DNA from: a virus
Direction: 5' to 3' (one strand)
Virus record (IMG/VR): IMGVR_UViG_3300036820_000001
Length of the DNA: 64,000 nucleotides
Both the position numbers and the translations under genes were made by a program. Position 1 is the first letter of the stretch, and every line of letters starts with the position of its first letter. Below the pieces are notes generated by a model. It made no database searches. It was not told where the DNA came from and was given only the letters and a program-made list of their open reading frames with translations. This document shows, in pieces, positions 10,554-36,763 of the stretch.

Positions 10554-10633
10554 GCGTGTCTGGGCCGGTATCAAAGCGTGGTTCGCAAAGCTGCGCTCGC
10601 AGCTGAGGGACACGGACGGAATCTAGGGGGAGC

Positions 10634-10867: not shown

Positions 10868-10874
10868 GGAAGCC

Positions 10875-11189: not shown

Positions 11190-11202
11190 ATCGGGGGAGT
11201 GC

Positions 11203-18015: not shown

Positions 18016-19590
18016 GTGCCGATCACTGAGGACATATCACAGCCGGGCGAGGTGCACGGCGTCGGCGTCAGCCCGTCATGCGTGACGCTGAAGTTCAGCC
18101 CGCCTGGCAAGTCGCTGATGCTGGCGCTGGTCACGGCGTACACGCAGAGCGCGGGCGCACCGTCATTGTCTGTGTCTGATAGCGGCAGCCACACCTGGAC
18201 GCTCGGCCCGTCGCGTGCCAACGGGCGGCTGCTGTCGGCCATCTACTACACGTACCTGACGTCGGCCCCTGGCAGTATCACCATGACCGCGACGGACTCA
18301 TCGGGGCAGGAGTGCGTCATCCACCTGACGCCGCGGGTGCTGAACGGCTGCACGAGCACACAGTCCGGGCAGAAGGTGAACAACAACGGCTACTCGCGCG
18401 TCCCGCAGGAGCCGATCACGCCGGGGTCCAAGCTGTCCACGGTCTACATCGCGGCTCTGATGGACGCCCAGCAGGCGACGGTGACGCCGCTGAGCACCAC
18501 GTTCCCCAGCCATACGTACAACATCTCCGAGATCCCCACCTGTCACCTGGCCGGGCGGTCGCTGACGGGCACTGCCTCGGCTGAGAACCTGGGGTGGACG
18601 GTCAGCGGCGCGGCCAACTGGGCACTGTCGGCCATGGAGATCCAGAACGCCGACGTTCCCATCAGCAGTGCTGACACCGGTACCGGCGGAGATACGAGCG
18701 GCGTGACGGTTAAAGCGCGGGTGCCGTCATCGGACGCTGGGACGGGCCTGGAGCTGATCAGGGGCGCGACTGGGACGGGCGCGGCCTTGTTCATGTTCTC
18801 GACCGACACCGGGCACGGCACGGACGCCACTGGCGTAATTACGCAGGTGTACCACGACCTCGGCAGCACGGACGCGGGCGCTGGCGTTGAGGGGTCGGTG
18901 CCGCCGCCGCTGGTGCGCCTGCCGACGCAGTTCGAGTTCGGCACCGGCAGCGAGTTCAGCTTGTACCCGCCCCTGGCTGAATACCCGTCGCTGGGCAACT
19001 TCGGCCCGCTGATGGAAGGGTTCAGCCTCGACCGGGCGGCCATGCTGAACGGCGCGACCGGAGTCGAGAGCGGGCAGCTATATGCCGCGCAGCAGATCAC
19101 CATCACGCCGGACATGACGGTCACGGACCTGATGTCAGATGACTATCACTACGGCATGTGGGTCAACCTGAACAAGGCGGCGCTGCAGGTGACCGAGGGG
19201 TTCCTGCCGTTCACGACGCTGGCGTCCATGACTGGGCTGTCGATCTCCAGCTTCGGCGCGAGCCCGCTGGACTACTACGCGATGCCACTGTGGACGCAGT
19301 ACCAGCACAACCGCAAGGCGGTGCCCATGGCGTTCCGCATGCAGTCACGGGACGGGTACGGCCACTCGCGGGCGCTGGTGTTCGTGCTGTACGCGGTCCA
19401 GCTGGCGGTCATGGACTTCACCGGCACGGTCTACAAGACTGGCCTGGGCGTGAGCTACAGCGGCACGGTGGTGTTCAGCAGCGTCGATGAGGTCGGCAAC
19501 GCGCTGGGGCGGCAGCAGATCGGGCGCATCGTGTCGCAGGCGGGCAACCAGGTCGGCGCGCTGTCGGGCATCCAGTTCCAGGGCAGCTAG
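18016..19590 (+). CDS. fibre-family protein (N-domain shared with 32330 ORF, four S-x-D-x-G-T-G repeats)
   Basis: 524 aa. SSADTGTGGD, SSDAGTGLE, STDTGHGTD and STDAGAGVE cores. The N-terminal ~190 aa resemble the duplicated N-domains of the 1477-aa ORF. Confidence 0.7.
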   Translation: MPITEDISQPGEVHGVGVSPSCVTLKFSPPGKSLMLALVTAYTQSAGAPSLSVSDSGSHTWTLGPSRANGRLLSAIYYTYLTSAPGSITMTATDSSGQECVIHLTPRVLNGCTSTQSGQKVNNNGYSRVPQEPITPGSKLSTVYIAALMDAQQATVTPLSTTFPSHTYNISEIPTCHLAGRSLTGTASAENLGWTVSGAANWALSAMEIQNADVPISSADTGTGGDTSGVTVKARVPSSDAGTGLELIRGATGTGAALFMFSTDTGHGTDATGVITQVYHDLGSTDAGAGVEGSVPPPLVRLPTQFEFGTGSEFSLYPPLAEYPSLGNFGPLMEGFSLDRAAMLNGATGVESGQLYAAQQITITPDMTVTDLMSDDYHYGMWVNLNKAALQVTEGFLPFTTLASMTGLSISSFGASPLDYYAMPLWTQYQHNRKAVPMAFRMQSRDGYGHSRALVFVLYAVQLAVMDFTGTVYKTGLGVSYSGTVVFSSVDEVGNALGRQQIGRIVSQAGNQVGALSGIQFQGS

Positions 19591-24153: not shown

Positions 24154-24430
24154 TGTACCCGTTCGGGCGCGAGCAGGCGGAGGAGACGGACCGGGATGTC
24201 TACGGTCGCTGCCGGATGCGCCTGGGGGCGAGTCAGCGGAAGAATACTGCGAGACGCTGCCCCAGTTCATCTGCAGTGACGGGCTGATCGGGTGCAACGA
24301 CTGCTGCCAGCCCATGTATTACTGCCTGAACGACGACAACTGGCACCACGTGGACCCGGAGCAGGAGTGCTTTCTAATAGCGTGCGAGTGCAAGGAATGC
24401 CTCGCTGAGATGATGGGGGAAATGGCATGA
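24063..24430 (+). pseudogene. Cys-rich protein gene split over two frames (frame break at G5 run 24224-24228)
   Basis: Frame 0 has high GC3 up to ~24230. After that, frame -1 carries the coding signal (AEEYCETLPQFICSDGLIGCNDCCQP...CECKEC) but has no start codon upstream of Met 24314. Confidence 0.4.
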
Positions 24431-25020
24431 CGCAGCGAACAGAGCAGTTCCCGATCCAGCCGAGCCCGGAGCCGCCGCCACGGCGGCACTGGAAGCGGTG
24501 GGTAGCGGGCGGGGCGGTCGGCGTGGTCGTCCTGGTGGCGGGCATCTCGATCGCCAACGCGGGCAGCCACCCGGCAGCGCCAGCAGCGCCGAGGGCGACT
24601 ACATCGGCCCCGGCCATGCCTTCGGCCACGCTAGCGGCACCAGTGCCGTCCACGGCGGCACCAGCGCCCGCTGCGCCTCCGCCACCGGCCAACACGGCAC
24701 CGGCGATGACGAGCGACCAGCAGCAGGCTGTGCAGTCGGCGCAGGGCTACCTGACGGACGGCGAGGGGTTCAGCTACGCAGGTCTCCTGCAGCAGCTGAC
24801 TTCGGCCGCGGGCGACGGGTTCAGCAACGCCGACGCGACGTTCGCCATCAACTACCTCAACCCCAACTGGGATCAGCAGGCGGTCGAGTCGGCCCAGGGC
24901 TACCTGGACGACGGCGAGGGGTTCAGCAAGTCCAGCCTGCTCCAGCAGCTGACCTCCACCTACGGCGAGGGCTTCACCAACGCCCAGGCCGAGTACGCCA
25001 TCAGCAAGACGATGGGCTAG
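24427..25020 (+). CDS. membrane-anchored protein with two Ltp-like (host cell surface-exposed lipoprotein) repeats
   Basis: N-terminal TM helix, Pro/Ala linker, then two units Q-Q-A-V-x-S-A-Q-G-Y-L..GEGFS..LLQQLTS..G(D/E)GF(S/T)NA(D/Q)A.(F/Y)AI matching the Ltp repeat pattern. Confidence 0.75.
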   Translation: MTQRTEQFPIQPSPEPPPRRHWKRWVAGGAVGVVVLVAGISIANAGSHPAAPAAPRATTSAPAMPSATLAAPVPSTAAPAPAAPPPPANTAPAMTSDQQQAVQSAQGYLTDGEGFSYAGLLQQLTSAAGDGFSNADATFAINYLNPNWDQQAVESAQGYLDDGEGFSKSSLLQQLTSTYGEGFTNAQAEYAISKTMG

Positions 25021-25029
25021 GAGACGCAG

Positions 25030-25164
25030 GTGAGGACGCGGTACCGGTTCGTGGCCCGTATCGGCAGGCACTACGTGTGGGAGAGCGTCCTGCCGATCGG
25101 GCCGAGGGAGTCGCGGCACGAGCGGATCGTGTGCGGCGTGGATTGGTTCTGGGGGCGACGGTGA
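25030..25164 (+). CDS. hypothetical protein (44 aa)
   Basis: GTG start. Ends in a GTGA overlap with the next gene. Confidence 0.3.
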   Translation: MRTRYRFVARIGRHYVWESVLPIGPRESRHERIVCGVDWFWGRR

Positions 25165-25574
25165 GCGAGCAGTACGCGCCTCACCACGGGGCGAGGCCGC
25201 ACCGCGGCGCGCGGCAGCGGTGGTCGTGGCAGAAGAAACTGATCGCGTGGGCGGTGGCGGTCTTCATCGCGCTCATTGTCATCACGGTGATCGGGGCCAA
25301 CGTGTCCCCGGCTAAGCCCGCGCCGCGGCCGGTGACGCACTCAGGCCCGGTGCTGGACACGGTGCGGGTGCCGGACGTAATCGGCATGCCCCAGGCGATT
25401 GCGCAGCGGGTGCTGAAGGACGACGGGTTCAGCATCGGGCTGGTCACGCCGGTCATCTGCGGCAAGATCCTCTGGGTGCAGCGACAGAGCCCGGCGGCGG
25501 GGATGATGATGCCGGCCGGGATGGCGGTGAGCGTGGCGTCGTCGGTCACGCCGCCGCACTGCAAGTGCGCTTAG
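25161..25574 (+). CDS. PASTA-domain membrane protein
   Basis: TM helix LIAWAVAVFIALIVITVIG, then VRVPDVIGMPQAIAQRVLKDDGFSIGLV..VQRQSPAAG..GMAVSV, which is the PASTA pattern. Confidence 0.65.
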   Translation: MSEQYAPHHGARPHRGARQRWSWQKKLIAWAVAVFIALIVITVIGANVSPAKPAPRPVTHSGPVLDTVRVPDVIGMPQAIAQRVLKDDGFSIGLVTPVICGKILWVQRQSPAAGMMMPAGMAVSVASSVTPPHCKCA

Positions 25575-25589
25575 GCGGTACCTCCGGGC

Positions 25590-25900: not shown

Positions 25901-26476
25901 GTGCTCATCACCGACTCAGACCTCGGTCGCGGCCAGGAGGGCGACACCGAGGGCGCGGTTGACTCCGACGCTGCCACCGGGGCGGACACCGAGTCGCGTC
26001 AGATCATCGTGGCGGACGCGGACAGCGGCGTCGCCATCTCCGGGTCGGCCAGCGTCTTCGTCCTGGCTTACATCGCGTCGGACATCGACGGCGGCACCGG
26101 GGCCGAGGCCTGGAGCACGGCGGCGGGCAAGAGCGACGCGGACGCTGGCACCGGGGCGGACGTGCACGCGCTGCTGTACGCGCCAGCGGACGTGGACGCG
26201 GCCACCGGGGCTGAGGAGCAGTGGTACGCCATCGGGGTGTTCCCGTTCCCGCCACCGTGGCTGTTCGGCCCCAGTGGCGGGCTGCGCGTCGTCTGGCACT
26301 ACGAGATGCGGCGGGACATGGCCACGCTGGAGTTCCCGTCCGACTCGGACGCGGGCGGCGGGGCTGAGGGCAACGGGCCGACCGCCGTCGTCACGCAGCT
26401 GGTAGCCGGGGTCGAGGTGACCTGCGCCAAGGCCAGGGAGGCTGCGCTGGTGCTCCTGGTCGAGGAGATGGCGTGA
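25901..26476 (+). CDS. stand-alone copy of the C-terminal module of the following 1311-aa protein
   Basis: 191 aa that align along their whole length with aa ~1098-1311 of 26473..30408 (QEGDTE, DIDGGTGAE, LYAPA, FPPPWLF.PSGGLRVVWH). Confidence 0.65.
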   Translation: MLITDSDLGRGQEGDTEGAVDSDAATGADTESRQIIVADADSGVAISGSASVFVLAYIASDIDGGTGAEAWSTAAGKSDADAGTGADVHALLYAPADVDAATGAEEQWYAIGVFPFPPPWLFGPSGGLRVVWHYEMRRDMATLEFPSDSDAGGGAEGNGPTAVVTQLVAGVEVTCAKAREAALVLLVEEMA

Positions 26477-29400
26477 CAACCAGGGTCGGGGCGTTCCTCA
26501 ACCCGTCTGCGATGGGGTTCGCGGCGTTCACCGACTGGACGAGCGCGGCCAGCACATGGAGCGGCTGGACGGGCACCGGCACCCCCACGGTCACCCGGTC
26601 GTACCAGGGCACTGGACCCTGGACCATCGGCTCTGATATGACGGCGATGATCGCGGCCGGGTGCAAGATCCTCATCAGCATGACCCCGGCCTACAACCCG
26701 GTCAGCTCGACCGACTACGCCAATATCCAGTCGTTCATGGAGGCGCTGGTTGCGGCCGGGGCCGACTGCGACGTGTGCATCTGGTCGGAGCCGTACTACA
26801 ACGGGCTGACGTCGGCCCAGTACATCGCCGCGGTGCAGTACTACGGGCCTGCGATCCGGCCGTATTACCCAATGTCATTCCAGACCGCCAACGGGTCGGT
26901 GGTGCACAACAGCGAGGCTTCGTACTATCCCGGTGACGCTTACGTGGATAAGGTCAGCACGGACTACTACGCGTCTGGCTACGTGGCCGGGGACAGGCTC
27001 ACGACCATTGCTGCTGTCGCGTCGGGGGCGTCGCCGCCCAAGCCGTTCTGCCTGTGGGAGATCAACGGGTCACCGGCCAGCACAGGCCAGTCGCAGGCTA
27101 ATGTCACCGCGTTCTTCGAGTACGTGCAGTCGTTCATGCTGGGGCAGGTCGCGGCGCAGCTTCCGATCGGTGATATCTGCCTGTTTAACGGCGCGCCTGG
27201 TGAGAGCGTGTTCGGCTGCGACGCCATCGAGGAGGCGAGCTTCGAGGGCGGCAACGGCAACTGGCTGGCGGCAGGCAACACCTCGGTTGCCAACAGCTCT
27301 GCGCAGCATCATTCTGGTGCTGACTGCCTGGCGGTCACCTGCACGGGATCGACCCCGGCTCAGATCGCGTCGTGCATCGCCACCGCCTACGCCACCGAGA
27401 TGCTGCCGGTCGCGGTCGGGGACAGCGTTGACGGCGCTATATGGGTGCGCGCAGCGGCCACGTCGCGCACGGTCACCTGCCAGGTCCAGTGGTACACATC
27501 GACCGGCACGGAGATCAGCGTCACGGCTGGGACTGGCGTGGCGGACTCCACCTCGGCGTGGACGCAGGCTGTCATATCCGGGGCGGTCGCTCCGGCGACG
27601 GCGGCTTGGGCGCGCCTGTTCCCGGCTATCGCTAGCGCCGCCGCGAGCGAGGTCCACTACTTTGACGACGCCGAGCTGCGGGACGTCGAGGGGGACAACC
27701 CCAATAACACGACCACCATCGAGTTCGGCTGGGACTACCGGATCGCCTTGTTCCAAGCGCTGTACGAGGCGCTGAACACGCAGCCGCCGCTGGCGCAGAC
27801 GCCGGCGTCCCCTGGCAGGGCTGTCCCTGGCGCGGCCACTCCTGGGCTTATTCCGTCGTCGTCCAAGTCCAGCTCGGACAGCGGCACCGGGGCTGAGTCG
27901 CAGCGGATAGCCACCGAGCGCCTGTTCAGCTCGGACAGCGGCACCGGGGCTGAGACGGGGATTATCCCGCTGCCCAAGATGGCGACGCTGGTCGAGAACT
28001 TCAGGGCCAACGACTTCAGCGCGGTGTGGGGCAACTCGTACGGCACGTACAGCTGGTCACCGGGCAGCGCGGCCATCCAGTGCGACACGGGCTACAGCTC
28101 TGCCCTGGGCAGCACCGTCAACTACGACCTGACCAGCTCATCGATCTACGTGGGCATCGCTCCGTACATCGCGACCAGCTCAGCGACGTTCCTGTTCCTG
28201 ACCAGCAGCACCGGCAACGCGATTATGTTCGGGCAGACGGGCGTTAACCTGGCTGTCTACAAGGCAGTCGCTGGCGTCCAGACGTCGCTATTCACGACCA
28301 CGTACAACGCGACTAGCCATGCCTGGTGGCGGATCAGGGAGTCCGCGGGCACGGTGTTCTTCGACACCGCGCCGGACGGGGCGACATGGACCAACCAGTA
28401 CAGCACGGCGGACACCACGTTCTCTGGGACGGTCCTCACCGCGCTGCAGGTTGACATCCAGCCTGGCGACTACGGGTCGGACCCGACTGGCACCACGTAC
28501 CTGTACGCGGTCAACTCGCCCAGGCTGCAAGCATCGACGGACGCGGGCACCGGGGCGGAGACTTACGTCCTGACGGCTCGCACGCCGAGCGCGGACAGCG
28601 GCACCGGGGCTGACGCGCAGAGCATGACCGCCAGGGTGCCCAGCGCTGACGCTGGCACTGGTCTGGAGGCGCAGAGCCTGATCGCCAAGGTGCCCAACCC
28701 GGACAGCGGCACCGGGGCCGAGACGCAGACGGTCATCGAGTCCCTGGCCAGCGCCGACGCTGGCACTGGCTTGGAGGCGCTGGCGCTGACGGCTAGCCTG
28801 GCCAGCGCAGACGCTGGCACCGGGGCCGAGCTGCAGGCGCTGACGATTCCCAGCGCAGACGCGGGCGCTGGTACGGAGACGCAGGCGCTTACGGCCAGGC
28901 TGCCCAGTTCCGACGCGGGCACCGGTGCGGACGCGCAGAGCGTCCGGCTGCCCAGCTCTGATATTGGTACCGGGGCCGAGCTGCAGGTGCTCACGGCGAG
29001 GGTGCCCAGCTCTGATAGCGGTACTGGGGCCGAGCAGCAGGGCATCGCGCTGGCCAGCTCGGACAGCGGCACTGGGGCTGAGGCCCAGGCTGTGGCTGCC
29101 ACCGCGCTCGTGTCCGACGTGGACAGCGGCGTGGGCGTTGACACGGAGAGTGTCAGCAGCGGCTCGATGCTCGTCAGCGACACGGACGCGAGCTTCACCA
29201 GTTACGAGGTGGAGTCGGGCCTCGGGCGCATCCCCAGCTCGGACGCGGCCACTGGAGCTGAGGTCCTGGCGATTCGCGTCGTCGTGTTCGACGGCGGCAC
29301 CGGGTCCGAGTCGCAGTCGTCTCGGGCGTCGATGTCCAACGCGGACTCCGGCACCGGCGCGGACGCTCAGGTCCTGACGCTGGCGTCGTCGGACACTGGC

Positions 29401-30408
29401 ACCGGGTCTGAGCTGCAGGCCACTGCCGACTCCATATCCGATGTGGACGCCGGGACCGGCGCGGACGTGCAGGTTCTCCGGCTGGCCGACGTGGACGCTG
29501 GCACGGGTGCGGACACTGGCCTGCTGACGGCGCTGGCGCGAGACACGGACGCGGGGCTGGGCGCGGACGCGGATACGCTGATGGCGCTGGAGACTGGCGC
29601 TGACGCCGGGCTGGGCGTGGACGCTGGCTTGCTGCGCGCGCTGGAGTCCGACCTTGACGCCGGGCTGGGCGCGGACGCGGCCACGCTGCCGGCTGTGCGG
29701 GTCAGGGACGCCGACGCGGGTACCGGTACGGAGACGCAGTTCTACGAGCCGTCCGGCACGATGTTCATCGTCAGCGCCGACTCGGGGCGCGTGCAGGAGG
29801 GCGACACTGAGGCCGCGGTCGGCTCGGACTTCGCCACCGGGGCGGACGCGCAGTCCCCCATGGTCGTGGTCCCGCCACCGGGCGCGGACCTGGCTACGGG
29901 GGCTGAGTCGGGCAGCTTCGTCGTCCTGGTCAACGCGCTGGCGGACATCGACGGCGGGACCGGGGCTGAGTCGTGGGCCACTGCGGGAGGCAGGGCTGAC
30001 CTCGATAGCGGCGATGGCGCGGACTCGCAGCTGTCGCTTTACGCACCGGCTGGCGCGGACGGCGGCACTGGCGGCGAGCCCGGCGCTTACCAGCTGGGGA
30101 TCTGGGCGTTCCCGCCGCCGTGGCTGTTCAATCCGAGCGGCGGGCTGCGGGTCGTCTGGCACGAGGGGCAGCCGGATGAGGTGGTGGTCCGCGAGTGGGA
30201 GGGCGAGTTCACCCGCCACCTGGACGCGGCGCAGCGGTTCTACGAGATCATCAGGGACTCGGACTCGCTGGAGTTCGTGTCGGACGCCGACGCGGCGGCT
30301 GGGAGCGACGTGAGCGGGCGGACGGCCAACGTCGCGGTGTGCGTGTTCGGGCCTGATATGGTGCAGCTGGTCAGCGGCGTGCGGATCGTCTGCGGGGTGC
30401 CCAGCTAG
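26473..30408 (+). CDS. fibre/depolymerase-like protein: GH26-like hydrolase + CBM4_9-like + LamG-like + S-x-D-x-G-T-G repeats + C-module
   Basis: YYPGDAYVDKVSTDYY and LWEINGS are GH26-like. FEGGNGNW..VHYFDDAEL is CBM-like. HAWWRIRESAGTVFFDTAPDGATW is LamG-like. About 30 repeat cores. Confidence 0.85.
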   Translation: MTTRVGAFLNPSAMGFAAFTDWTSAASTWSGWTGTGTPTVTRSYQGTGPWTIGSDMTAMIAAGCKILISMTPAYNPVSSTDYANIQSFMEALVAAGADCDVCIWSEPYYNGLTSAQYIAAVQYYGPAIRPYYPMSFQTANGSVVHNSEASYYPGDAYVDKVSTDYYASGYVAGDRLTTIAAVASGASPPKPFCLWEINGSPASTGQSQANVTAFFEYVQSFMLGQVAAQLPIGDICLFNGAPGESVFGCDAIEEASFEGGNGNWLAAGNTSVANSSAQHHSGADCLAVTCTGSTPAQIASCIATAYATEMLPVAVGDSVDGAIWVRAAATSRTVTCQVQWYTSTGTEISVTAGTGVADSTSAWTQAVISGAVAPATAAWARLFPAIASAAASEVHYFDDAELRDVEGDNPNNTTTIEFGWDYRIALFQALYEALNTQPPLAQTPASPGRAVPGAATPGLIPSSSKSSSDSGTGAESQRIATERLFSSDSGTGAETGIIPLPKMATLVENFRANDFSAVWGNSYGTYSWSPGSAAIQCDTGYSSALGSTVNYDLTSSSIYVGIAPYIATSSATFLFLTSSTGNAIMFGQTGVNLAVYKAVAGVQTSLFTTTYNATSHAWWRIRESAGTVFFDTAPDGATWTNQYSTADTTFSGTVLTALQVDIQPGDYGSDPTGTTYLYAVNSPRLQASTDAGTGAETYVLTARTPSADSGTGADAQSMTARVPSADAGTGLEAQSLIAKVPNPDSGTGAETQTVIESLASADAGTGLEALALTASLASADAGTGAELQALTIPSADAGAGTETQALTARLPSSDAGTGADAQSVRLPSSDIGTGAELQVLTARVPSSDSGTGAEQQGIALASSDSGTGAEAQAVAATALVSDVDSGVGVDTESVSSGSMLVSDTDASFTSYEVESGLGRIPSSDAATGAEVLAIRVVVFDGGTGSESQSSRASMSNADSGTGADAQVLTLASSDTGTGSELQATADSISDVDAGTGADVQVLRLADVDAGTGADTGLLTALARDTDAGLGADADTLMALETGADAGLGVDAGLLRALESDLDAGLGADAATLPAVRVRDADAGTGTETQFYEPSGTMFIVSADSGRVQEGDTEAAVGSDFATGADAQSPMVVVPPPGADLATGAESGSFVVLVNALADIDGGTGAESWATAGGRADLDSGDGADSQLSLYAPAGADGGTGGEPGAYQLGIWAFPPPWLFNPSGGLRVVWHEGQPDEVVVREWEGEFTRHLDAAQRFYEIIRDSDSLEFVSDADAAAGSDVSGRTANVAVCVFGPDMVQLVSGVRIVCGVPS
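28531..29735 (+). repeat. in-frame tandem array of S-x-D-x-G-T-G-x-E/D units (approximate bounds)
   Basis: Periodic GAC-GCN-GGC-ACC-GGG-GCN-GAG cores every ~39-48 nt. Imperfect and coding. Confidence 0.8.
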
Positions 30409-30414
30409 TGGCTA

Positions 30415-30421
30415 CGATAGG
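30415..30421 (+). promoter_or_regulatory. CGATAGG motif (family B), 8 nt upstream of ATG 30429
   Basis: CTACGATAGGC-tgagat-ATG in the 20-nt gap after the 1311-aa ORF. Confidence 0.35.
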
Positions 30422-30428
30422 CTGAGAT

Positions 30429-31373
30429 ATGGCGCTTACGGCAACTCTGGAGATCTTCGGCAACCAGTGCTCCTGCGTGGCCACGGGCACATATGGCACC
30501 ACTACGCCGGCCGCTGGTACCAGTGAGAGCTGGGTCATGGGGACTGGGTACACGACGTTCCCGACGCCGCAGGACAGTGTGTTTCCGAACACGTTCTTCC
30601 GAATCGTGGACCCGGCCGCGCCATCGGAGATTATGGCGGTGGTCACGGGGGGCGGCGGGTCTTCGTCGTGGACGGTGATTCGTGGGGTTGAGGGTACTGT
30701 CGTCGCGCACTCGGCTCTGGCCACTTATGACATGGTGATCAGCGCAGGTACGCTGCAGAACCTGAAGCAAGCGTCTAATGCGGTGACGACACCAGTGACG
30801 ATCACGACCAGCACTACGGAGACTGTGCTGGCTACATATACTCCCACGGCTAATGACCTTGAACTCGGGGCTACATTCGAGGCGCTGGCGTTTGGATCGA
30901 TTACCGCGCATGGTGGCACGGCACGCGGGAACCTGGGGTTCAATCTTTACTGGGGCGGGTCTGGATCGGCTGGCGGTGCGTTTACATCTACGGGGTCTAC
31001 CAAGCTGGCCAGCCTGGTGCAAGGCACCAATATGCCCTTGTTCACTGTGACTACGGTGGTGGCTGGAGCTAGTTTTGATGTTAACGGGCAGGTTACTATC
31101 CAGGGCCTCTCAGCAGGTGTGGTGACATCGGCCGCGGCTAACATCAACTGCTTCTACGGGCCGTATAACTCTAGTAATAGCCTGGTTGCGGCCAGTGGTA
31201 TGCAGAGTGCTGTGGCGTCTAATAATGGCGCAGCTGCGGCCAGCTCTGGCTCGGCGGTGACGGTCAGCGGGGCCAGCTCGACGTCTCCTCTAATTCTTAC
31301 TGCGGTGTGGACGTCTGGGTTCACTGTCTATGGAATTACGGCTACTGCGCCGGTTATCTACAGGGTGGCGTGA
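30429..31373 (+). CDS. tail fibre-like protein (low-GC island)
   Basis: 314 aa, Thr/Ser/Gly/Ala-rich. Local GC is about 52% (31 of 60 at 30721-30780). Confidence 0.7.
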   Translation: MALTATLEIFGNQCSCVATGTYGTTTPAAGTSESWVMGTGYTTFPTPQDSVFPNTFFRIVDPAAPSEIMAVVTGGGGSSSWTVIRGVEGTVVAHSALATYDMVISAGTLQNLKQASNAVTTPVTITTSTTETVLATYTPTANDLELGATFEALAFGSITAHGGTARGNLGFNLYWGGSGSAGGAFTSTGSTKLASLVQGTNMPLFTVTTVVAGASFDVNGQVTIQGLSAGVVTSAAANINCFYGPYNSSNSLVAASGMQSAVASNNGAAAASSGSAVTVSGASSTSPLILTAVWTSGFTVYGITATAPVIYRVA

Positions 31374-31987
31374 TGACTCGTCTGGTATGTATGTATGGTG
31401 GTGACTATCCGTTCGAGTCGGATCTGGACCCGAGGGTGAAGGCGGCGCTGGAGAAGTACGCTCCCCAGGTGGGGTTGGAGGTCGAGTGGGTTGACACAAA
31501 GCCCAGTAGACAGATATACGCTGATGAGATGGAAAAGCGGTGGAACGGCACCGAGGACCTGATTATCGTTGAGCAGGACAAAGAGATATTCATGGATACT
31601 CTGCCTAGTTTGCTAGGATGCCGTGAGCCGTGGTGCGGGTACACGTTCTGGCAGAACCCGGAGCCGCACACTAACTTGGTGATCGGCGGGTTCGGGGTGA
31701 CTAAGTTCAGCGCGCAAGTGCAGACGTGGTTCCCGGTGTCGGCGTTCCGTGGTAAGGATCAGGTTGGCATTGACCGGAGGTTCTACGATTACCTCATCAA
31801 GAATCACCGGTTTGGCATCCACTTGCACGGCAGCGTGGTGCATCACCATGTCTACGAGCCGCGGCCGGAGTCGGTGCGCCGTTATGTCCGTATGTTGCGC
31901 GAGCGTGGAGTGATCGCTCCGTCTCTCGCGCCACCGGCGCTAGACCCCGGTCTGCTGCCTGGTAGCTATCGTCTGCCCGATAGGTAG
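31373..31987 (+). CDS. possible GT-A-type glycosyltransferase
   Basis: TGATG-coupled. DLIIVEQDKEIFMDTLPSLL resembles the GT2 DxD-region pattern. Low-confidence product call. Confidence 0.6.
   Translation: MTRLVCMYGGDYPFESDLDPRVKAALEKYAPQVGLEVEWVDTKPSRQIYADEMEKRWNGTEDLIIVEQDKEIFMDTLPSLLGCREPWCGYTFWQNPEPHTNLVIGGFGVTKFSAQVQTWFPVSAFRGKDQVGIDRRFYDYLIKNHRFGIHLHGSVVHHHVYEPRPESVRRYVRMLRERGVIAPSLAPPALDPGLLPGSYRLPDR
31977..31983 (+). promoter_or_regulatory. CCGATAG motif (family B), 8 nt upstream of ATG 31992
   Basis: CCGATAGGTA-gaggc-ATG. Overlaps the last codons of the upstream gene. Confidence 0.35.
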
Positions 31988-31991
31988 AGGC

Positions 31992-32303
31992 ATGGCGATC
32001 TTCACCTCTGGCATCACGCAGGCGTACGTGACCAACAACGCCCAGGCCAAGCTGGCGGCGCTGCGCAATGCCCTGGAGGATGTGGAGAACTTCTACGAGT
32101 GGCTGTCGGCGTACGCAGAGTCTGACCTGGAGACGATGGGGTTCACCACGGCTGACGCGACGGCGATATTCACGGCGTTCGCTGACGCCAACGCGCTGTA
32201 CCAGATCTACACCACCGGGCTGCCGCCGGGGACGTACCCGCAGCCGGCCAGTGCCTACGTGTACGCGGCGAGCCAGCGGGTGATCATCGGGCCGCTGAGC
32301 TAG
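31992..32303 (+). CDS. hypothetical protein, paralog of 8653..8946
   Basis: 103 aa. Shares the LETMGFTTADATAIFTAFADANAL-type segment with the 97-aa ORF at 8653. Confidence 0.65.
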   Translation: MAIFTSGITQAYVTNNAQAKLAALRNALEDVENFYEWLSAYAESDLETMGFTTADATAIFTAFADANALYQIYTTGLPPGTYPQPASAYVYAASQRVIIGPLS

Positions 32304-32329
32304 GGCTTCCAATCTGACGGGAGGCCGCC

Positions 32330-35300
32330 ATGGCGTGGTCACGCCTCCAGTCCAACAGCGCGACCAACAGCAGCGGGAACGCGTCGGTCGCGTATACCAG
32401 CAACCTGACGTCCGGCTCGGTGATGATCGCCATCGTCGGCCTCAACAGCGATGATGCGGTTCTTGGTACTGCGTGCACGGTCAAGGATAGTAACAACAAT
32501 GCATTCACGTTCCTTGGCGGTAACGTAGCGGCTGGGTGGGACTTCCTCGGGGTGTATGTGCTGGCCACCCCGTCCGGGGACGCTGGTACTAAGCCGACTA
32601 TTACCGGCACATTCAATGTCACGGATAACTTCGGCTGGGTTATCCTCGTGCAGGAGATATCAGGGATTAGCGTCACACCGGACGGCACCCTGGCAGGCAA
32701 TAGCGGGAGCGGAACGCCTGCGACGCTGGGTGCGTACTCGGACACCGCGTCTAATGAATACCTGCTCGTGGTCTACGGTGACGCGGCTGGTAACGCGACG
32801 GCGACTACGCCGACTGGCTACACGGCTGACCCATCCAATAACAGCGGCAGCTTCAACTTCGACCTGTTTGTGTTTTATAAGAACTCGACCGGTGGCACTG
32901 AGTCCGCGTCCATTACCACGAACACGTCTGGTGACTGGTCTACCACGGTCGTGGCTCTTAAGCTGGCTGGCGGGACGTCCATCTCCAGCTCGGATAGCGG
33001 GACTGGGTCTGAGCTAGGCACCGTGTCTGGCCCGGTTGATGTCACGTGGAAGCCGACGACGCTTAACGGCACCAACACTCTGACGTCCACGTCGTTCACG
33101 CCCAGCCCTAATGTGCTGCTGGTCGCCATCGGCGCGGTATGTAACGGCAACGGACTGACCACTACCAGCTTCACGCTGACGGGGACGGGGCCTCAGACAT
33201 GGACCCAGCTTCTGTTTGCTAACGATGGGTCCGGTGCAGGTGGCGGGTCAGCCGTATGGGTGTCGGACTCGGGGTCTTCCCCGGCCAGCCAGACTGTTAC
33301 TGTTACTGCGCTGCCGTCCACGGTCACGGACTGTGACGTCATGATCTTCGAGGCTGTGGGCGCTGCTGACGCGGCTGCGCAGATAGCTCAGGCGGCGCTG
33401 AATGGGCAGACTGCGACTGGCACGCAGTCCGGTATCACCATTACCCCGGCGCAGACGGGATCGATGCTGGTGGGTGCCTGTGGTCAGGCACCGGCGACTG
33501 CGTTTGTGGTGGATGGCGTAATCACTGACACTTTTGCCGCGCCTGCCAAGGGCGCCAATAACGGGTATGCGACGGCGTTCTACGCCATAGCCAGGACGAC
33601 GGCCGGGGTTGCGGTTACCTTTGGCGCGACCGCTACTCGTAATAAGTCAGCCTTCACTGGCGTAGAGATCATCCCGCCGGCTCCGTCGCCATTGCCGATG
33701 ACGGCGGCGAGTCCTGGCAAGGCTGTGCCTGGCGCAGTTAGCCCGGGAGTTATCCCGGTGTCAGGCGGCGGATCGACTCCCAAGTCCAGCTCGGATGCGA
33801 GTGCCGCGGGGGCGGACGCGCAGGCGCTGACCGCGAGGGTGCCGAGCGCGGATACGGGCACCGGGGCCGAGCTGCAGGGCGTTCACGAGATCATCCCGGA
33901 AGCTGGGCTGGACACCGGCGCTGGCCTGGAGACGCAGGCGCTCACGGCCAGGGTGCCCAGTACGGACGCTGGCACTGGGACCGAGCTGCAGGCGCTCACG
34001 GCGTTCGTGCACGACTCGGACAGCGGCACGGGCCTGGAGACGCAGAGCGTCGTCCAGTTTAACCAGGTGGCATCGCCTGACTCTGGGGCCGGGCTAGAGG
34101 CGCAGGGCGTCATAGCATCCGTATCCGGCTCGGACACGGGCACTGGAGCGGACGCGCAGGCGCTGGGCGTCGCTGGGGCGGACAGCGGGTCGGGCGCTGA
34201 CGCCGGGCAGGTGCGAGCAGCCCTGTTGTCGGCTGACGTTGGCACTGGAGCTGACGCCCAGCAGATCGGCGTGGCGAGTTCTGACAGCGGAGCGGGGGCG
34301 GATGGTACCGGGACGGTATCTGCCCGGCTGAGTTCGGCTGACACCGGCACCGGTGCTGAGGCGCAGTACGTGCTGGTCACCTCGGCTGATGCTGGGACGG
34401 GGGCTGAGACTGGCGTTATCGTTGCGACGCTGGCCGGTGCCGACTCTGGGTCTGGGACTGAGGCTCAGTACGTCGGGGTGGCCAGCGCTGACGCAGGCAC
34501 CGGCCAGGAGGCTGGGCAGGCTAACGCAGTCGTGCTGGCCGCGGACTCGGGTACCGGGGCTGAGGCGCAGATCATCGCGGTGGCTTCGTCTGACGCTGGG
34601 CTGGGTGGTGACGCTGGCACTGCGACTGAGACCATCCCGGTGGCCAGCGCCGATACTGGGCACGGTGCTGAGACCGGCGTTGCCGCGGCCAGCCTGGCGG
34701 GATCGGACAGTGGCACCGGGGCGGACGCCCAGGGCATCGGCCTGTCTGCGCTGGACGCTGGCACTGGGGCTGAGACTGGCGTCGTCACGGCTGCCCTGGC
34801 TGGCCAGGACGCGGGCACCGGATCTGATGCGCAGGCAGTATTGCTGGCGTCGGCTGACGCGGGCACTGGCGCTGACGCCGGGCAGTCGTCGGCCAGGCTG
34901 GCGGCAGCGGACAGCGGGTCGGGCGCTGAGCTGCAGATCGTCGGGGTGTCCTCGGCCGACGCTGGGTCTGGGCTGGACGCTGGCGCTGAGGTCAGCACCA
35001 CACCGGTGTCTGGCAGCGACGCGGGGTCTGGGGCTGAGGCGCAGTTTGTCGGCGTCAGCGGGCTGGACGCGGGCACCGGGGTGGAGGCGGTCAGCGACCT
35101 CGACCGGCTGAACTCGCTGGACACCGGGCAGGGCACGGAGGCGCAGTTCGTCGGCGTCCGTGGGCTGGACGCGGGGACTGGAGCGGACGCGGGCTCTGTC
35201 TTCGAGACCATCCCGGTGGCCGGGTCGGATACCGGCGCTGGCGCTGAGGCTCAGGTCATCCTGGTGGCTAGCGCGGACGCTGGCACGGGTGCGGACGCGG

Positions 35301-36763
35301 GCAGCCCGTTCGAGATCATTCCGGTGGCTGGGTCCGATACGGGTAGCGGCAGTGCAGCTCAGACTGTTCGGGTTAACGCGAGTGACGCTGGCACTGGCCA
35401 GGAGGCGTCCAGCGTCGCAGCGGCGGCGGCGGGGGCCGACGCGGGCACCGGGGCGGACCAGGGCGTCCAGCTTGGCCTGGCAGGGCTGGAGGCGGCATCC
35501 GGGGCCGACGCTGGCACTGTCGTCGCATCGGCCGCTAGCGCGGACGCGGGCACTGGCGGCGAGGCCTGGAGTGTCATCCTGCCGCTGGCCGACGCAGGCA
35601 CCGGGGCGGAGTCTCAGGCGCTGCTCGCCCGGCTGGCGGACAGCGACCTCGGCACGGGCGCGGACAGCGGGACGGCCAACAGGTCGGGCAGCCCGTCCGA
35701 CAGTGACCACGGCACCGGCGCTGAGGCGCAGACGGTCACCGCCCGGCTGGCGGACAGCGACCTCGGCATGGGTGCTGAGGCCCAGCAGACTGGCGTGATG
35801 GTCACCGGTGCTGACGCTGGCATCGGGGCTGAGGCACAGCACGAGGCGGTGGCCGCGGCCGACTCCGGGTCCGGCTCCGAATCGCAGTTCACGCGGGTCA
35901 GTTCGGCCGACGCTGGGTCTGGCGCTGAGGCGCAGACGGTCGTCGAGCAGATGGCCGGATCGGACAGCGGCACCGGAGCCGAGTTGCAGAGCGTCCGGCT
36001 GCCGAGCGCAGACGCTGGGACTGGCGCTGAGGCGCAGTCGCTGGCGGCTAGGCTGGCTGACTACGACCTCGGCCAGGGCACGGACACCGGGCAGGTGATC
36101 GGGCAGTCCGTGCAGGTGTCCTCCTCGGACGCGGGCACTGGCGCTGACCTGACTGGCCAGCTGGGGCTGGCATCAGCGGACGTAGGGTCCGGGGCTGAGG
36201 CTCAGGTCATGCTGGGCCGCCCGGCTGACGCCGACACTGGCACCGGCACGGACGCGGGGCAGCAGACGGGCCACCCGGCGGACGCGGATCACGGAGCTGG
36301 CGGCGACCTGACTGGCGCGGTCGGGCTGGCGTCGGCTGACACGGGCACTGGGGCCATGGCGCAGGCGATCGGCCTCGCGGGGTCCGACGCGGCGGCCGGG
36401 CTGGAGTTCTGGGGCATCGTTGCGCACCTGTTCGACCTGGACAGCGGGGCGGACACGGAGTTCGGGTTCGTCCCTGGGCTTATCCAGTTCGTGTCCGACT
36501 CGGACGCTGGCACCGGGGCGCAGGGCTACGCCATCGGGCTGCGATTGTCGGACGCGGGCACCGGGGCGAGCACGGAGGCGGTGCCCGGCCAGTCTCTGGA
36601 TGTGGGCGATTTCGACTCCGGTCACGGTGTGGATGGCCTCTGGTACACGTGGGGGACTGGCTGGGGGGCCATCATCTTTGACCTGCAGATCGTGGCGGCG
36701 CAGATCAGCCAGGATGCGGCTGGTGAGGCGCAGCTGGTGATGCTGGCTGAGCCACCGTCCTAG
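32330..36763 (+). CDS. giant fibre-family protein (two N-domains + ~55 S-x-D-x-G-T-G-x-E repeats)
   Basis: 1477 aa. The N-terminal ~450 aa are a tandem duplication of a domain also found in 18016..19590. The rest is the repeat array. Confidence 0.85.
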   Translation: MAWSRLQSNSATNSSGNASVAYTSNLTSGSVMIAIVGLNSDDAVLGTACTVKDSNNNAFTFLGGNVAAGWDFLGVYVLATPSGDAGTKPTITGTFNVTDNFGWVILVQEISGISVTPDGTLAGNSGSGTPATLGAYSDTASNEYLLVVYGDAAGNATATTPTGYTADPSNNSGSFNFDLFVFYKNSTGGTESASITTNTSGDWSTTVVALKLAGGTSISSSDSGTGSELGTVSGPVDVTWKPTTLNGTNTLTSTSFTPSPNVLLVAIGAVCNGNGLTTTSFTLTGTGPQTWTQLLFANDGSGAGGGSAVWVSDSGSSPASQTVTVTALPSTVTDCDVMIFEAVGAADAAAQIAQAALNGQTATGTQSGITITPAQTGSMLVGACGQAPATAFVVDGVITDTFAAPAKGANNGYATAFYAIARTTAGVAVTFGATATRNKSAFTGVEIIPPAPSPLPMTAASPGKAVPGAVSPGVIPVSGGGSTPKSSSDASAAGADAQALTARVPSADTGTGAELQGVHEIIPEAGLDTGAGLETQALTARVPSTDAGTGTELQALTAFVHDSDSGTGLETQSVVQFNQVASPDSGAGLEAQGVIASVSGSDTGTGADAQALGVAGADSGSGADAGQVRAALLSADVGTGADAQQIGVASSDSGAGADGTGTVSARLSSADTGTGAEAQYVLVTSADAGTGAETGVIVATLAGADSGSGTEAQYVGVASADAGTGQEAGQANAVVLAADSGTGAEAQIIAVASSDAGLGGDAGTATETIPVASADTGHGAETGVAAASLAGSDSGTGADAQGIGLSALDAGTGAETGVVTAALAGQDAGTGSDAQAVLLASADAGTGADAGQSSARLAAADSGSGAELQIVGVSSADAGSGLDAGAEVSTTPVSGSDAGSGAEAQFVGVSGLDAGTGVEAVSDLDRLNSLDTGQGTEAQFVGVRGLDAGTGADAGSVFETIPVAGSDTGAGAEAQVILVASADAGTGADAGSPFEIIPVAGSDTGSGSAAQTVRVNASDAGTGQEASSVAAAAAGADAGTGADQGVQLGLAGLEAASGADAGTVVASAASADAGTGGEAWSVILPLADAGTGAESQALLARLADSDLGTGADSGTANRSGSPSDSDHGTGAEAQTVTARLADSDLGMGAEAQQTGVMVTGADAGIGAEAQHEAVAAADSGSGSESQFTRVSSADAGSGAEAQTVVEQMAGSDSGTGAELQSVRLPSADAGTGAEAQSLAARLADYDLGQGTDTGQVIGQSVQVSSSDAGTGADLTGQLGLASADVGSGAEAQVMLGRPADADTGTGTDAGQQTGHPADADHGAGGDLTGAVGLASADTGTGAMAQAIGLAGSDAAAGLEFWGIVAHLFDLDSGADTEFGFVPGLIQFVSDSDAGTGAQGYAIGLRLSDAGTGASTEAVPGQSLDVGDFDSGHGVDGLWYTWGTGWGAIIFDLQIVAAQISQDAAGEAQLVMLAEPPS
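33785..36636 (+). repeat. in-frame tandem array of S-x-D-x-G-T-G-x-E/D units with a ~33-35-aa super-repeat (approximate bounds)
   Basis: Cores such as SADAGTGAE, GSDSGTGAD and SADTGTGAE. Two flavours alternate at 34380-35480. Confidence 0.85.

What the first reader, a model, noticed from the sequence alone, without database searches (positions are those of the whole stretch)
33785..36636. About 2.8 kb in-frame array of a short S-x-D-x-G-T-G-x-E/D repeat that I cannot assign to any named repeat family
Seen: from about aa 485 onward, ORF 32330..36763 consists almost entirely of 13-19-aa units. Each unit is built round the core [SGA]-[ASL]-D-[AST]-G-[TS]-G-[AL]-[ED], for example SADAGTGAE, GSDSGTGAD and SADTGTGAE. 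I count about 55 cores by hand. In the centre (~34380-35480) two unit flavours alternate (DAGTGAE-TGVIVATLAG and DSGSGTE-AQYVGVA), giving a 33-35-aa super-repeat. The DNA core is GAC-GCN-GGC-ACC-GGN-GCN-GAG. Inference: the D/G/E spacing recalls Ca-binding beta-roll or solenoid repeats such as RTX GGxGxD, but it is not the same pattern. It could be an undescribed fibre or stalk repeat. An array like this is also prone to recombination, which could tune fibre length.
Basis: partly seen in the sequence, partly recalled or inferred. Interest (0 to 1): 0.8.

Follow-up and report, generated by a model that had tools for sequence, protein, structure and literature searches.

The report
Undescribed acidic beta-repeat phage fibre
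A 1477-residue protein of an uncultured high-GC phage carries about 52 copies of a 16-18-residue "beta-strand plus acidic glycine turn" unit that matches no named repeat family; it is most likely the shaft of an accessory tail fibre, which makes it a new sequence family of a familiar kind of phage part, not a new kind of system.

Summary
ORF 32330..36763 (+, 1477 aa) has 50 D-x-G-x-G cores between aa 506 and 1446, against 2.75 expected by shuffling. Units are 16-21 aa, and 16- and 18-residue flavours alternate significantly. The array is not an assembly artefact: three assemblies give identical DNA. It is old: units are 60-77% identical and TRF finds nothing.

Nothing in Pfam, NCBIfam, PHROGs or PDB sequences covers the repeat. 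It is nevertheless a real family. A unit profile finds 443 protein clusters among 1.84 billion, nearly all metagenomic and unnamed. Three Rhodococcus phage "hypothetical proteins" and a Tsukamurella prophage gene also carry it.

The N-terminal domain of the flagged protein folds confidently (pLDDT 89.8). It matches predicted structures of many actinophage "minor tail proteins" (TM 0.7-0.8).

Best reading: a modular accessory tail fibre whose acidic all-beta repeat forms the shaft. Calcium binding, strand topology and oligomeric state remain untested. The "recombination-prone" idea is not supported.

Verdict: new variant of a known kind, moderate interest.

The parts
32319..32324 (+). Shine-Dalgarno GGGAGG of the flagged gene
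   Evidence: Read directly from the sequence; lies 6 nt upstream of the ATG at 32330.
32330..36763 (+). ORF A: 1477-aa repeat protein, the flagged gene. Predicted accessory tail fibre / minor tail protein.
   Evidence: ORF list. The exact protein and DNA occur on two further assemblies.
32363..32974 (+). N-dom copy 1 (aa 12-215): all-beta domain with the fold of actinophage 'minor tail proteins'
   Evidence: AF2 pLDDT 89.8, pTM 0.89. BFVD Foldseek E 1e-11 to 1e-7, TM 0.6-0.8, to minor tail proteins of phages Hawkeye, PP, Tweety, Gaia, Beyoncage and others. No significant PDB match. Domain limits from the iterated HMM.
32987..33034 (+). Single isolated repeat unit (SSDSGTGSELGTVSGP) between the two N-doms
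   Evidence: Regex and translation.
33056..33646 (+). N-dom copy 2 (aa 243-439)
   Evidence: Iterated HMM of N-dom, domain E 2.8e-30.
33668..33844 (+). Pro/Gly/Ser linker (aa 447-505) ending in one degenerate unit. The 'ASPGKAVPGAVSPGVIP' segment is shared with ORF B.
   Evidence: Translations.
33845..36667 (+). Main array, aa 506-1446: about 52 units of S-x-D-x-G-T-G-x-E-x-Q-x-hydrophobic-x-hydrophobic-x, 16-21 aa each, with 16/18 flavours alternating. 125 D+E against 15 R, and no K or C.
   Evidence: AF2 on aa 669-874 gives 11-13-residue strands separated by 5-residue x-G-x-G-x turns, at low confidence (pLDDT 57.7).
36626..36760 (+). C-terminal cap (aa 1433-1477, W..WGAI.F.LQ...Q.A.GEA.LV.LAE), shared with metagenomic protein P0010
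   Evidence: BLASTP alignment through the C-terminus; motif search.
26473..30408 (+). ORF B (1311 aa), a paralogous repeat protein. Order of parts: weakly GH26-like head plus putative carbohydrate-binding region, 2 units (27871-27987), inserted globular domain (27988-28533), about 27 units (28534-30051 and beyond), then a conserved C-terminal module (29707-30405).
   Evidence: A homologue of the head lies inside a post-tape-measure tail protein of an IMG/VR contig.
25901..26476 (+). ORF D (191 aa): a stand-alone copy of ORF B's C-terminal module (about 6 degenerate units plus FPFPPPWLFGPSGGLRVVW). Its stop overlaps the start of ORF B.
18016..19590 (+). ORF C (524 aa): N-dom (18076-18651), 4 repeat units (18667-18924), then a C-terminal globular domain (18925-19587, phrog_36442)

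Best explanation
ORF A most likely encodes an accessory tail fibre (a 'minor tail protein') of a large, deep-branching siphovirus-like phage of a high-GC Gram-positive (actinobacterial) host.

Shown: the protein is modular. It has two N-terminal beta-sandwich domains of the fold seen in actinophage minor tail proteins, a Pro-rich linker, about 52 tandem 16-18-residue units, and a 45-residue cap.

Inferred from a low-confidence model and the residue pattern: each unit is one beta-strand of about 11-13 residues with hydrophobic side chains on one face (family positions 13, 15, 17 and 1'). It is followed by a tight x-G-x-G-x turn bracketed by an invariant Asp and an Asp/Glu. Two successive units (34-36 aa) form one structural period. 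That period is either one coil of a flat two-sheet beta-solenoid or one beta-hairpin, which would explain the alternating 16/18 flavours. Stacked, the units would give a stiff, strongly acidic rod roughly 12-25 nm long. The rod acts as a shaft that sets how far the globular parts reach from the tail.

Shown: the same shaft module is reused by at least four proteins of this phage and by hundreds of metagenomic phage proteins. These combine it with different heads (LamG, glycosidase-like, discoidin, GDSL).

Speculative: the paired acidic residues at every turn bind divalent cations and make folding or stiffness cation-dependent.

Unresolved: which end docks on the virion. The N-dom is the more likely anchor, because N-dom-only proteins are annotated as minor tail proteins.
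For: - Repeat reality and periodicity.
- Family: the unit profile finds 443 clusters (150 at E<=1e-10) among 1.84e9 representatives, all with an 18 (16-19)-residue period.
- Tail association, fold: N-dom pLDDT 89.8, with TM 0.6-0.8 and E down to 1e-11 to many 'Minor tail protein' models. The N-dom directly precedes the array in at least 56 of 150 family members, and also in ORFs A (twice) and C.
- Tail association, isolated phages: the non-repeat parts of Madraxi gp8 and REQ1 Orf64 hit tail, minor-tail and virion-structural PHROGs.
- Tail association, context: family genes lie in structural modules. In a Tsukamurella prophage the gene lies directly upstream of the LysA/LysB lysis cassette. The window itself starts with Dit and a 1901-aa tail protein.
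- Heads typical of receptor-binding or depolymerase proteins: Laminin_G_3 in 8 of 61 homologues, plus apiosidase-like, Spherulin4, F5_F8_type_C, GDSL and DUF4082. A homologue of the ORF B head is embedded in a post-tape-measure tail protein elsewhere.
- Beta structure: AF2 gives 12 strands of 11-13 residues separated by 5-residue turns. Its Foldseek neighbours, none significant, are almost all beta-helices or solenoids: SufB/D, ice-binding proteins, RTX, CsgA, FapC. Hydrophobic residues sit at alternate positions. Positions 1 and 11, symmetric about the turn, covary.
- Acidity: 125 D+E against 15 R in 941 aa; family-wide 12.8% acidic against 1.5% basic.
Against: - No direct evidence that the protein is in virions.
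- The repeat model has low confidence (pLDDT 57.7) and was built from a 7-row self-alignment. I could not inspect its coordinates, so solenoid versus hairpin ribbon is undecided and the oligomeric state is unknown.
- 'Minor tail protein' labels in BFVD/GenBank are mostly positional annotations.
- ORF A lies about 24 kb downstream of the Dit/Tal genes. Between them are non-structural-looking genes (Ltp lipoprotein, PASTA), so this is not a classical tail operon position.
- The composition (A+G+S+T+D = 67%) would also suit a disordered region.
- ORF B lacks the N-dom, so the anchoring rule cannot be general.
Confidence: 0.6

Rival explanations
1. The array is itself the adhesin rather than a passive shaft. 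Dozens of identical acidic Gly-turn loops would form a multivalent surface, perhaps cation-bridged, that binds a repetitive cell-envelope polymer (arabinogalactan, lipoglycan or teichoic-type). The N-dom would anchor the protein on the tail.
For: - In ORF A, and in most family members, the array runs almost to the C-terminus with only a 40-70-residue cap. No obvious distal receptor-binding domain exists.
- The turn residues are the most conserved positions across the family: D 100%, G 87-95%, D/E 99%. This is more than a spacer would seem to need.
- The N-dom is N-terminal and conserved, as anchors of phage fibres usually are.
Against: - Conserved turns are equally expected for purely structural reasons.
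- Other members carry clear C-terminal or inserted globular domains: ORF C, ORF B, and the LamG-bearing proteins.
- No binding data exist.
Confidence: 0.2
2. The region is an intrinsically disordered, highly acidic low-complexity linker (an entropic spacer or bristle), not a folded repeat.
For: - Composition: A 21%, G 18%, S 10%, D 9%, T 8.5%, with a net charge of about -110.
- AF2 confidence is only 57.7.
- No structural homologue was found.
Against: - Strict 16/18-residue periodicity with conserved alternating V/I/L positions holds across hundreds of diverged proteins. Disordered linkers do not keep register or hydrophobic phase.
- AF2 predicts regular long strands at pLDDT 55-64 throughout, not the <50 coil typical of disorder.
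- Synonymous sites are scrambled while the protein pattern is kept, which points to selection on the fold.
Confidence: 0.1
3. The protein is not part of the tail. It could be a capsid decoration or head fibre, or a secreted or cell-surface protein made during infection or lysogeny, for example to act on the host envelope or for exclusion.
For: - The gene cluster lies between the tail genes and the replication genes, next to an Ltp-type superinfection-exclusion lipoprotein and a PASTA-domain gene.
- In Madraxi and REQ1 the gene lies upstream of the terminase gene, not after the tape measure gene.
- Two PHROG hits are filed under 'head and packaging: virion structural protein'.
Against: - The N-dom fold matches many minor tail proteins.
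- N-dom and the ORF B head occur fused into bona fide post-tape-measure tail proteins.
- The Tsukamurella prophage copy is the last gene before the lysis cassette.
- I did not run a signal-peptide predictor on ORF A, so secretion is untested.
Confidence: 0.1

Closest known systems
RTX beta-roll (GGxGxDxUx nonapeptide; Pfam HemolysinCabind)
   Same: Tandem Gly/Asp-rich turns alternate with short beta-strands. Two turns and two strands per structural period is a plausible reading here (18 aa per coil in RTX, 34-36 aa here). Both are strongly acidic, and Ca-dependence is conceivable.
   Different: No GGxGxD motif occurs (0 matches) and there is no Pfam hit. The unit is twice as long (16-18 aa against 9). 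Acidic residues bracket the turn (D-xGxGx-E) instead of following it. The context is a phage structural protein, not a T1SS-secreted toxin. Ca binding is untested.
Marinomonas primoryensis ice-binding adhesin region IV (19-residue repeat xGTGNDxuxuGGxuxGxux, Ca2+-bound right-handed beta-helix; PMC3492233, PDB 3P4G)
   Same: Similar period (19 against 16-18 aa). Both have a G-T-G turn next to acidic residues and alternating hydrophobic strand positions. 3P4G appears among the non-significant Foldseek neighbours of the repeat model.
   Different: The consensus differs: no GND and no second GG turn. There is no sequence or profile match. One coil there is one 19-residue repeat, whereas here the period is two units.
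Shaft repeats of viral fibres (adenovirus / reovirus sigma1 triple beta-spiral, 15-20-residue pseudo-repeats; T4-type triple beta-helices) - comparison from general knowledge
   Same: Many short beta-rich pseudo-repeats with a conserved Gly/Pro turn build the shaft of a receptor-binding fibre. Repeat number sets fibre length and varies between relatives.
   Different: There is no sequence relationship and no Pfam Adeno_shaft hit. Those shafts are obligate trimers, whereas the oligomeric state here is unknown. The acidic D...E bracket has no counterpart there.
Actinobacteriophage 'minor tail proteins' with the N-dom fold (e.g. Mycobacterium phages Hawkeye, Tweety, Gaia, Zenon; Gordonia phages Beyoncage, GodonK)
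   Same: The N-terminal 220 residues of ORF A have the same predicted fold (TM 0.6-0.8, E down to 1e-11).
   Different: Sequence identity is only 13-22%. Many of those matches (about 190-330 aa) are little longer than the N-dom, so they have little room for an array. The long matches (650-900 aa) were not examined. None of these proteins has a solved structure.
Rhodococcus phage proteins Madraxi gp8, Jflix2 gp6 and REQ1 Orf64 (all annotated 'hypothetical protein')
   Same: True family members. They carry about 14 tandem 17-18-residue units (K-P-S-D-T-G-T-G-T-E-x-x-x-T-T-A-L-V) after tail-protein-like N-terminal domains.
   Different: They have far fewer units and different heads and C-termini, and share only about 32% identity with the ORF A array. 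They lie upstream of the terminase gene.

Membership tests
RTX / HemolysinCabind beta-roll | Tandem nonapeptide GGxGxDxUx | tested here: not met
   0 matches to GG.G.[DN] in the whole protein.
RTX / HemolysinCabind beta-roll | Match to Pfam PF00353 profile | tested here: not met
   No Pfam family at E<=1 for ORF A. None among 61 homologues.
RTX / HemolysinCabind beta-roll | Ca2+ bound in the turns; Ca-dependent folding | not testable with these tools
   Only an inference, from the net charge of about -110 and the D/E bracket at each turn.
MpIBP region-IV type 19-residue Ca-bound beta-helix | Consensus xGTGNDxuxuGGxuxGxux (PMC3492233) | tested here: not met
   0 matches to G.G[ND]D. No PDB sequence or profile hit.
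Ice-nucleation protein 16-residue repeat | AGYGSTxTAxxxSxLx octapeptide-based repeat (from general knowledge) | tested here: not met
   0 GYGS motifs; no Pfam hit.
Collagen-like phage fibre | Runs of G-x-y triplets | tested here: not met
   0 runs of four or more G-x-y triplets.
Adenovirus/reovirus triple beta-spiral shaft | Profile match to the shaft repeat; obligate trimer | tested here: inconclusive
   No Pfam hit. Trimerisation cannot be tested with a monomer prediction.
Beta-solenoid (generic structural class) | Parallel stacking of successive coils, each made of a fixed number of strand-turn units | tested here: inconclusive
   The AF2 model shows a regular strand(11-13)/turn(5) pattern, but pLDDT is 57.7. 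Foldseek neighbours are nearly all beta-helices, but none is significant and TM is <=0.31. The coupling of positions 1 and 11 fits either an arch or a hairpin.
Actinophage minor tail protein (N-dom fold) | Structural match of a domain to proteins annotated as minor tail protein | tested here: met
   Foldseek against BFVD: 69 matches at E<=1e-3. The top ones reach TM 0.7-0.8 and include at least 12 'Minor tail protein' entries. The query model has pLDDT 89.8.
Actinophage minor tail protein (N-dom fold) | Physical presence in the virion tail | not testable with these tools
   Needs proteomics or EM.
New 'D-x-G-x-G 18-mer' repeat family (defined here) | At least 4 tandem units of x-[STA]-D-[TSA]-G-[TSA]-G-[TAS]-[DE]-[AST]-x-[STA]-[VLI]-x-[AV]-x-[VLI]-[SPT], with a period of 16-19 residues | tested here: met
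   ORF A has about 52 units, ORF B about 29, ORF C 4 and ORF D about 6. 150 representatives at E<=1e-10 share the same period.

The most novel reading that the evidence does not exclude
The unit defines a new structural class of cation-stabilised beta-solenoid. Each coil would be two 16-18-residue strand-turn units, with ladders of Asp and Glu at both edges. Phages would use it as a universal plug-in stalk. One ~140-kb phage would then display several different enzymatic or lectin heads (ORFs A, B, C) on shafts of very different length. These would dock through shared C-terminal modules (ORF D, and the C-end of ORF B), which is the reverse of the usual fibre polarity. Ca2+-dependent stiffening of such shafts could contribute to the divalent-cation requirement reported for adsorption of some actinophages.
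Probability: 0.2. Interest if true: 0.6.

Novelty: new variant of a known kind. Interest (0 to 1): 0.4.

Why it matters
Receptor-binding and accessory fibres decide phage host range, and they are the least annotated part of actinobacteriophage genomes. This finding defines a repeat that current libraries miss, together with a consensus and a searchable profile. About 440 protein clusters now labelled hypothetical, including proteins of three cultured Rhodococcus phages, could then be recognised as fibre or minor-tail proteins. The finding also shows one phage reusing a single shaft module with different heads and very different lengths (4 to about 52 units). That is a compact natural example of modular fibre design, useful for host-range engineering. 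If the shaft proves to be a cation-dependent beta-solenoid, it would add a new repeat architecture to that structural class. It does not reveal a new biological mechanism.

Tried and rejected
- Tandem Repeats Finder on 32.0-37.5 kb found no array. The units are too diverged at DNA level, so protein-level analysis was needed.
- Megablast of the gene, and tblastn of the N-terminal half and of ORF B's C-terminal module, against 50,697 phage records gave no match.
- Pfam, PHROGs and NCBIfam on ORF A gave nothing. The only NCBIfam rows were sub-threshold compositional matches of ORFs B and D to staphylococcal SD-repeat adhesins. I reject these as low-complexity noise.
- The PDB sequence search gave one chance-level hit, dHax3 at E 0.015. 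The profile search gave thiazole synthase at E 0.75. Both are rejected.
- A first pseudo-alignment of overlapping slices (A2) was useless, because MAFFT aligned the overlaps by identity. It was replaced by non-overlapping slices (A3).
With ORF A as a single query it found no relative in IMG/VR.
Only 1 of those (Tsukamurella sp. 1534) carries a real array when checked with the A1 HMM. The taxonomic list from that scan must therefore not be used.
- Clustering the non-repeat segments by all-against-all phmmer merged N- and C-terminal pieces through residual units. It was replaced by an iterated N-dom HMM.
- Mutual information between units was dominated by lineage effects (a diagonal signal). Only the coupling of positions 1 and 11 stood out, and it cannot separate hairpin from arch.
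- I tested whether the neighbouring 204-aa gene (31373-31987) is the glycosyltransferase seen next to an N-dom protein on another contig. There is no similarity, so the idea is dropped.
- Literature searches for the motif, for REQ1 and for repeats in minor tail proteins found no description of this repeat.

Full report

ORF 32330..36763 (+) is open for 1477 codons. A GGGAGG ribosome-binding site lies 6 nt upstream of its ATG.

D-x-G-x-G occurs 51 times in the protein. Fifty of these lie between aa 506 and 1446, spaced 16-21 residues apart. Shuffling the array's own composition gives 2.75 such motifs on average and never more than 11 in 2000 trials. A six-frame scan finds the motif only on the + strand and only in the frames of real ORFs.

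Short (16-17) and long (18 or more) units alternate in 34 of 47 neighbour pairs, and only 17 of 10,000 shuffles reach that. DNA repeat families are spaced 102/108 nt.

In ORF A the 16-residue unit reads [GS]-[AS]-D-[TSA]-G-[TS]-G-A-[ED]-A-Q-x-[VI]-x-[VL]-[AS]. The 18-residue unit reads S-A-D-A-G-T-G-A-E-[AT]-[QG]-x-[VL]-x-A-x-[LV]-A.

Tandem Repeats Finder reports nothing. Units are only 60-77% identical at DNA level, and the longest exact direct repeat in the array is 29 nt.

The same DNA, base for base over 15-24 kb, is present in two Logan assemblies from different runs. The parent IMG contig is 139,587 bp. The array is therefore old, under selection at the protein level, and not an assembly artefact.

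**2.

The unit is not confined to this gene.

- ORF B (26473..30408, 1311 aa) has two units, an inserted globular domain, and then about 27 more units.
- ORF C (18016..19590) has four units between an N-terminal and a C-terminal globular domain.
- ORF D (25901..26476, 191 aa) has about six degenerate units plus an FPFPPPWLFGPSGGLRVVW motif. That motif also ends ORF B. ORF D's stop overlaps ORF B's start.

ORFs A and B share a Pro-rich linker just before the array. The repeat is thus a module used by several proteins of this phage.

**3. Is it a known repeat?**

- Pfam, PHROGs and NCBIfam give no family for ORF A.
- PDB gives only chance-level rows, both for the protein sequence and for a profile of 64 double units.
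- Pfam scanned over 61 homologues covers the repeat in none of them.
- Regular expressions for RTX (GGxGxD), the MpIBP region-IV repeat, collagen and ice-nucleation repeats give zero matches.
- Full-text searches find no paper describing the motif.
- One PHROG of unknown function (phrog_18371) matches the array of one homologue. The repeat has therefore been clustered before, but never characterised.

**4. How widespread is it?**

An exhaustive hmmsearch of the 36-position unit profile against 1.84 billion cluster representatives gives 443 proteins at E<=1e-3. Of these, 150 are at E<=1e-10 and 15 at E<=1e-30.

All 150 best hits show the same period, mostly 18 residues with a range of 16-19. 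They carry a median of about 10 units and at most about 31-36, depending on the counting rule. ORF A's roughly 52 units is the largest array seen.

The family consensus is x-[STA]-D-[TSA]-G-[TSA]-G-[TAS]-[DE]-[AST]-x-[STA]-[VLI]-x-[AV]-x-[VLI]-[SPT]. D is 100% conserved, the two G are 87-95%, and D/E is 99%. Family arrays are 12.8% acidic against 1.5% basic.

Word-indexed searches return only unnamed metagenomic proteins. Among 50,697 phage records, only Rhodococcus phages Madraxi (gp8), Jflix2 (gp6) and REQ1 (Orf64) carry the repeat, and all three proteins are annotated 'hypothetical protein'. One prophage copy was found in Tsukamurella sp. 1534.

**5. What kind of protein is it?**

The window begins with a Dit homologue and a 1901-aa tail protein. 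It continues to replication genes: SNF2 helicase, DnaB and PolA. PolA is only 33% identical to its best match among phage records, Microbacterium phage Magritte.

ORF A's first 220 residues fold with high confidence into an all-beta domain (pLDDT 89.8). This domain has no significant PDB neighbour. It does match many predicted structures of actinophage 'Minor tail protein', with E down to 1e-11 and TM 0.6-0.8.

An iterated HMM finds this 'N-dom' twice in ORF A (aa 12-215 and 243-439) and once in ORF C. It also finds it immediately before the array in at least 56 of the 150 best family members. The N-dom also occurs as stand-alone proteins of about 250 residues. In P0003 it is fused to the N-terminus of a large tail protein (phrog_5313).

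Madraxi gp8 and REQ1 Orf64 hit tail, minor-tail and virion-structural PHROGs through their non-repeat parts.

Other family members carry Laminin_G_3 (8 of 61), apiosidase-like, Spherulin4, discoidin, GDSL, He_PIG, DUF4082 and fn3 domains. This is the typical repertoire of receptor-binding and depolymerase proteins.

ORF B's head is weakly GH26-like (E 0.023). Its 56%-identical homologue in an IMG/VR contig is embedded in the tail protein that follows the tape-measure gene.

Family genes sit in structural modules. In the Tsukamurella prophage the gene sits directly before the LysA/LysB cassette.

Together this makes a tail-associated fibre or minor tail protein the best-supported identity. No experiment shows it.

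**6. How the array probably works**

AF2 on aa 669-874, with a 7-row alignment of non-overlapping slices, predicts twelve strands of 11-13 residues. They are separated by 5-residue x-G-x-G-x turns, with the conserved D ending one strand and the conserved E starting the next. Confidence is low (pLDDT 57.7, pTM 0.51).

The model's Foldseek neighbours are all non-significant. They are nevertheless almost exclusively parallel beta-helices or solenoids: SufB/D, ice-binding proteins, RTX blocks, CsgA and FapC fibrils.

Hydrophobic residues occupy alternate positions (13, 15, 17 and 1'), in the same phase as D3 and D/E9. Positions 1 and 11, which are symmetric about the turn, covary.

My reading is as follows. 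One unit is one strand plus one turn. Two units make one structural period, either a coil of a flat two-sheet solenoid or a hairpin. This accounts for the 16/18 alternation. About 52 units would then give a rod of roughly 12 nm (solenoid, 0.48 nm per coil) to 25 nm (ribbon). These lengths are my own estimates from standard beta-sheet geometry.

ORF A's array has 125 D+E against 15 R, and no Lys or Cys. Acidic residues bracket every turn, so cation binding is plausible, by analogy with RTX and with the Ca-bound MpIBP region IV (PMC3492233). The defining motifs of those families are absent, however, and nothing here tests metal binding.

Which end docks on the virion is unresolved. The N-dom is the likelier anchor, because N-dom-only proteins are annotated as minor tail proteins. 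ORF B lacks the N-dom and instead shares a C-terminal module with stand-alone ORF D.

**7. The 'length-tuning by recombination' idea**

Between family members the unit number ranges from 4 to about 52. The nearest relative sharing ORF A's C-terminal cap, P0010, has 27 units. Length has therefore changed during evolution.

Within this gene, synonymous sites are scrambled, the longest exact repeat is 29 nt, and all three assemblies agree. There is no sign of an actively unstable locus.

**8. Verdict**

The finding is real and somewhat larger than reported. It is an undescribed, rare but widespread 16-18-residue acidic beta-repeat that serves as a shared module of phage minor-tail or fibre proteins, with an exceptionally long array in ORF A. 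It is a new sequence and probably structural variant of a familiar kind of part, the phage fibre shaft, not a new kind of system. Interest is moderate (0.4). It would rise if the shaft proves to be a new cation-dependent solenoid class with reversed anchoring polarity (probability about 0.2).

Noticed in passing
window 18016-19590, 25901-26476, 26473-30408: Three further ORFs carry the same repeat unit (4, about 6 and about 29 units). ORF D is a stand-alone copy of ORF B's C-terminal module, and its stop overlaps ORF B's start, which suggests co-translation and possibly co-assembly.
   Followed up: partly
window 30400-33800: Low-GC island: GC is 0.58-0.61 against 0.68 for the window, and GC3 is 0.66-0.75 against 0.87-0.93 elsewhere. 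It covers ORFs 30429-31373 and 31373-31987 and the N-terminal half of ORF A (the small ORF 31992-32303 between them keeps GC3 0.91). The ORF A array also has lower GC3 (0.80) than ORF B (0.87). This looks like a horizontally acquired head cassette fused to a shaft.
   Followed up: partly
window 26473-27870; L007 about 9900-11390: ORF B's N-terminal 440 residues look like a TIM-barrel glycosidase plus a carbohydrate-binding region. The only support is a weak GH26 hit (E 0.023). A 56%-identical copy is embedded in the post-tape-measure tail protein of IMG/VR contig 3300036790_000276. The same head is thus mounted in two different ways in different phages.
   Followed up: partly
window 24427-25020 and about 25160-25575: An Ltp-type surface lipoprotein (Pfam Lipoprotein_Ltp, E 1.5e-29; PHROG 'superinfection exclusion') and a PASTA-domain gene lie between the tail genes and the repeat-protein genes. 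An exclusion lipoprotein hints at a temperate lifestyle or a moron cluster.
   Followed up: no
window 2948-8653: A 1901-aa tail protein has repeated 'GSLWYDT..GN.LY.Y..GSW' segments and a very Gly-rich block (GGGGTTSNGGESGGGG...). It gives only weak Sipho_Gp37 and unknown-function PHROG hits.
   Followed up: no
window 30429-31373: A 314-aa Thr/Ser/Ala/Gly-rich ORF directly after ORF B has no hit in any library. It may be another fibre-like component.
   Followed up: no
whole window: All confident genes are on the + strand and there are no tRNAs. The parent contig is 139.6 kb. PolA is only 33% identical to its best match among 50,697 phage records (Microbacterium phage Magritte, 133 kb). This is a deep-branching, large actinophage-like genome.
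   Followed up: partly
window 33883-35973, minus strand: Long minus-strand ORFs (up to 582 aa) overlap the array. They are by-products of the GC-rich repeat: their GC3 is no higher than their other codon positions, and the motif is absent from that strand. They are not genes.
   Followed up: yes
L078 386-1258 (Tsukamurella sp. 1534, NZ_HE997629.1): A prophage copy of the family has about 8 units of the form 'TDTGTGSDSAVLLAHLLA'. It is followed by a small beta domain and lies immediately upstream of a cutinase-like LysB and an amidase LysA.
   Followed up: partly
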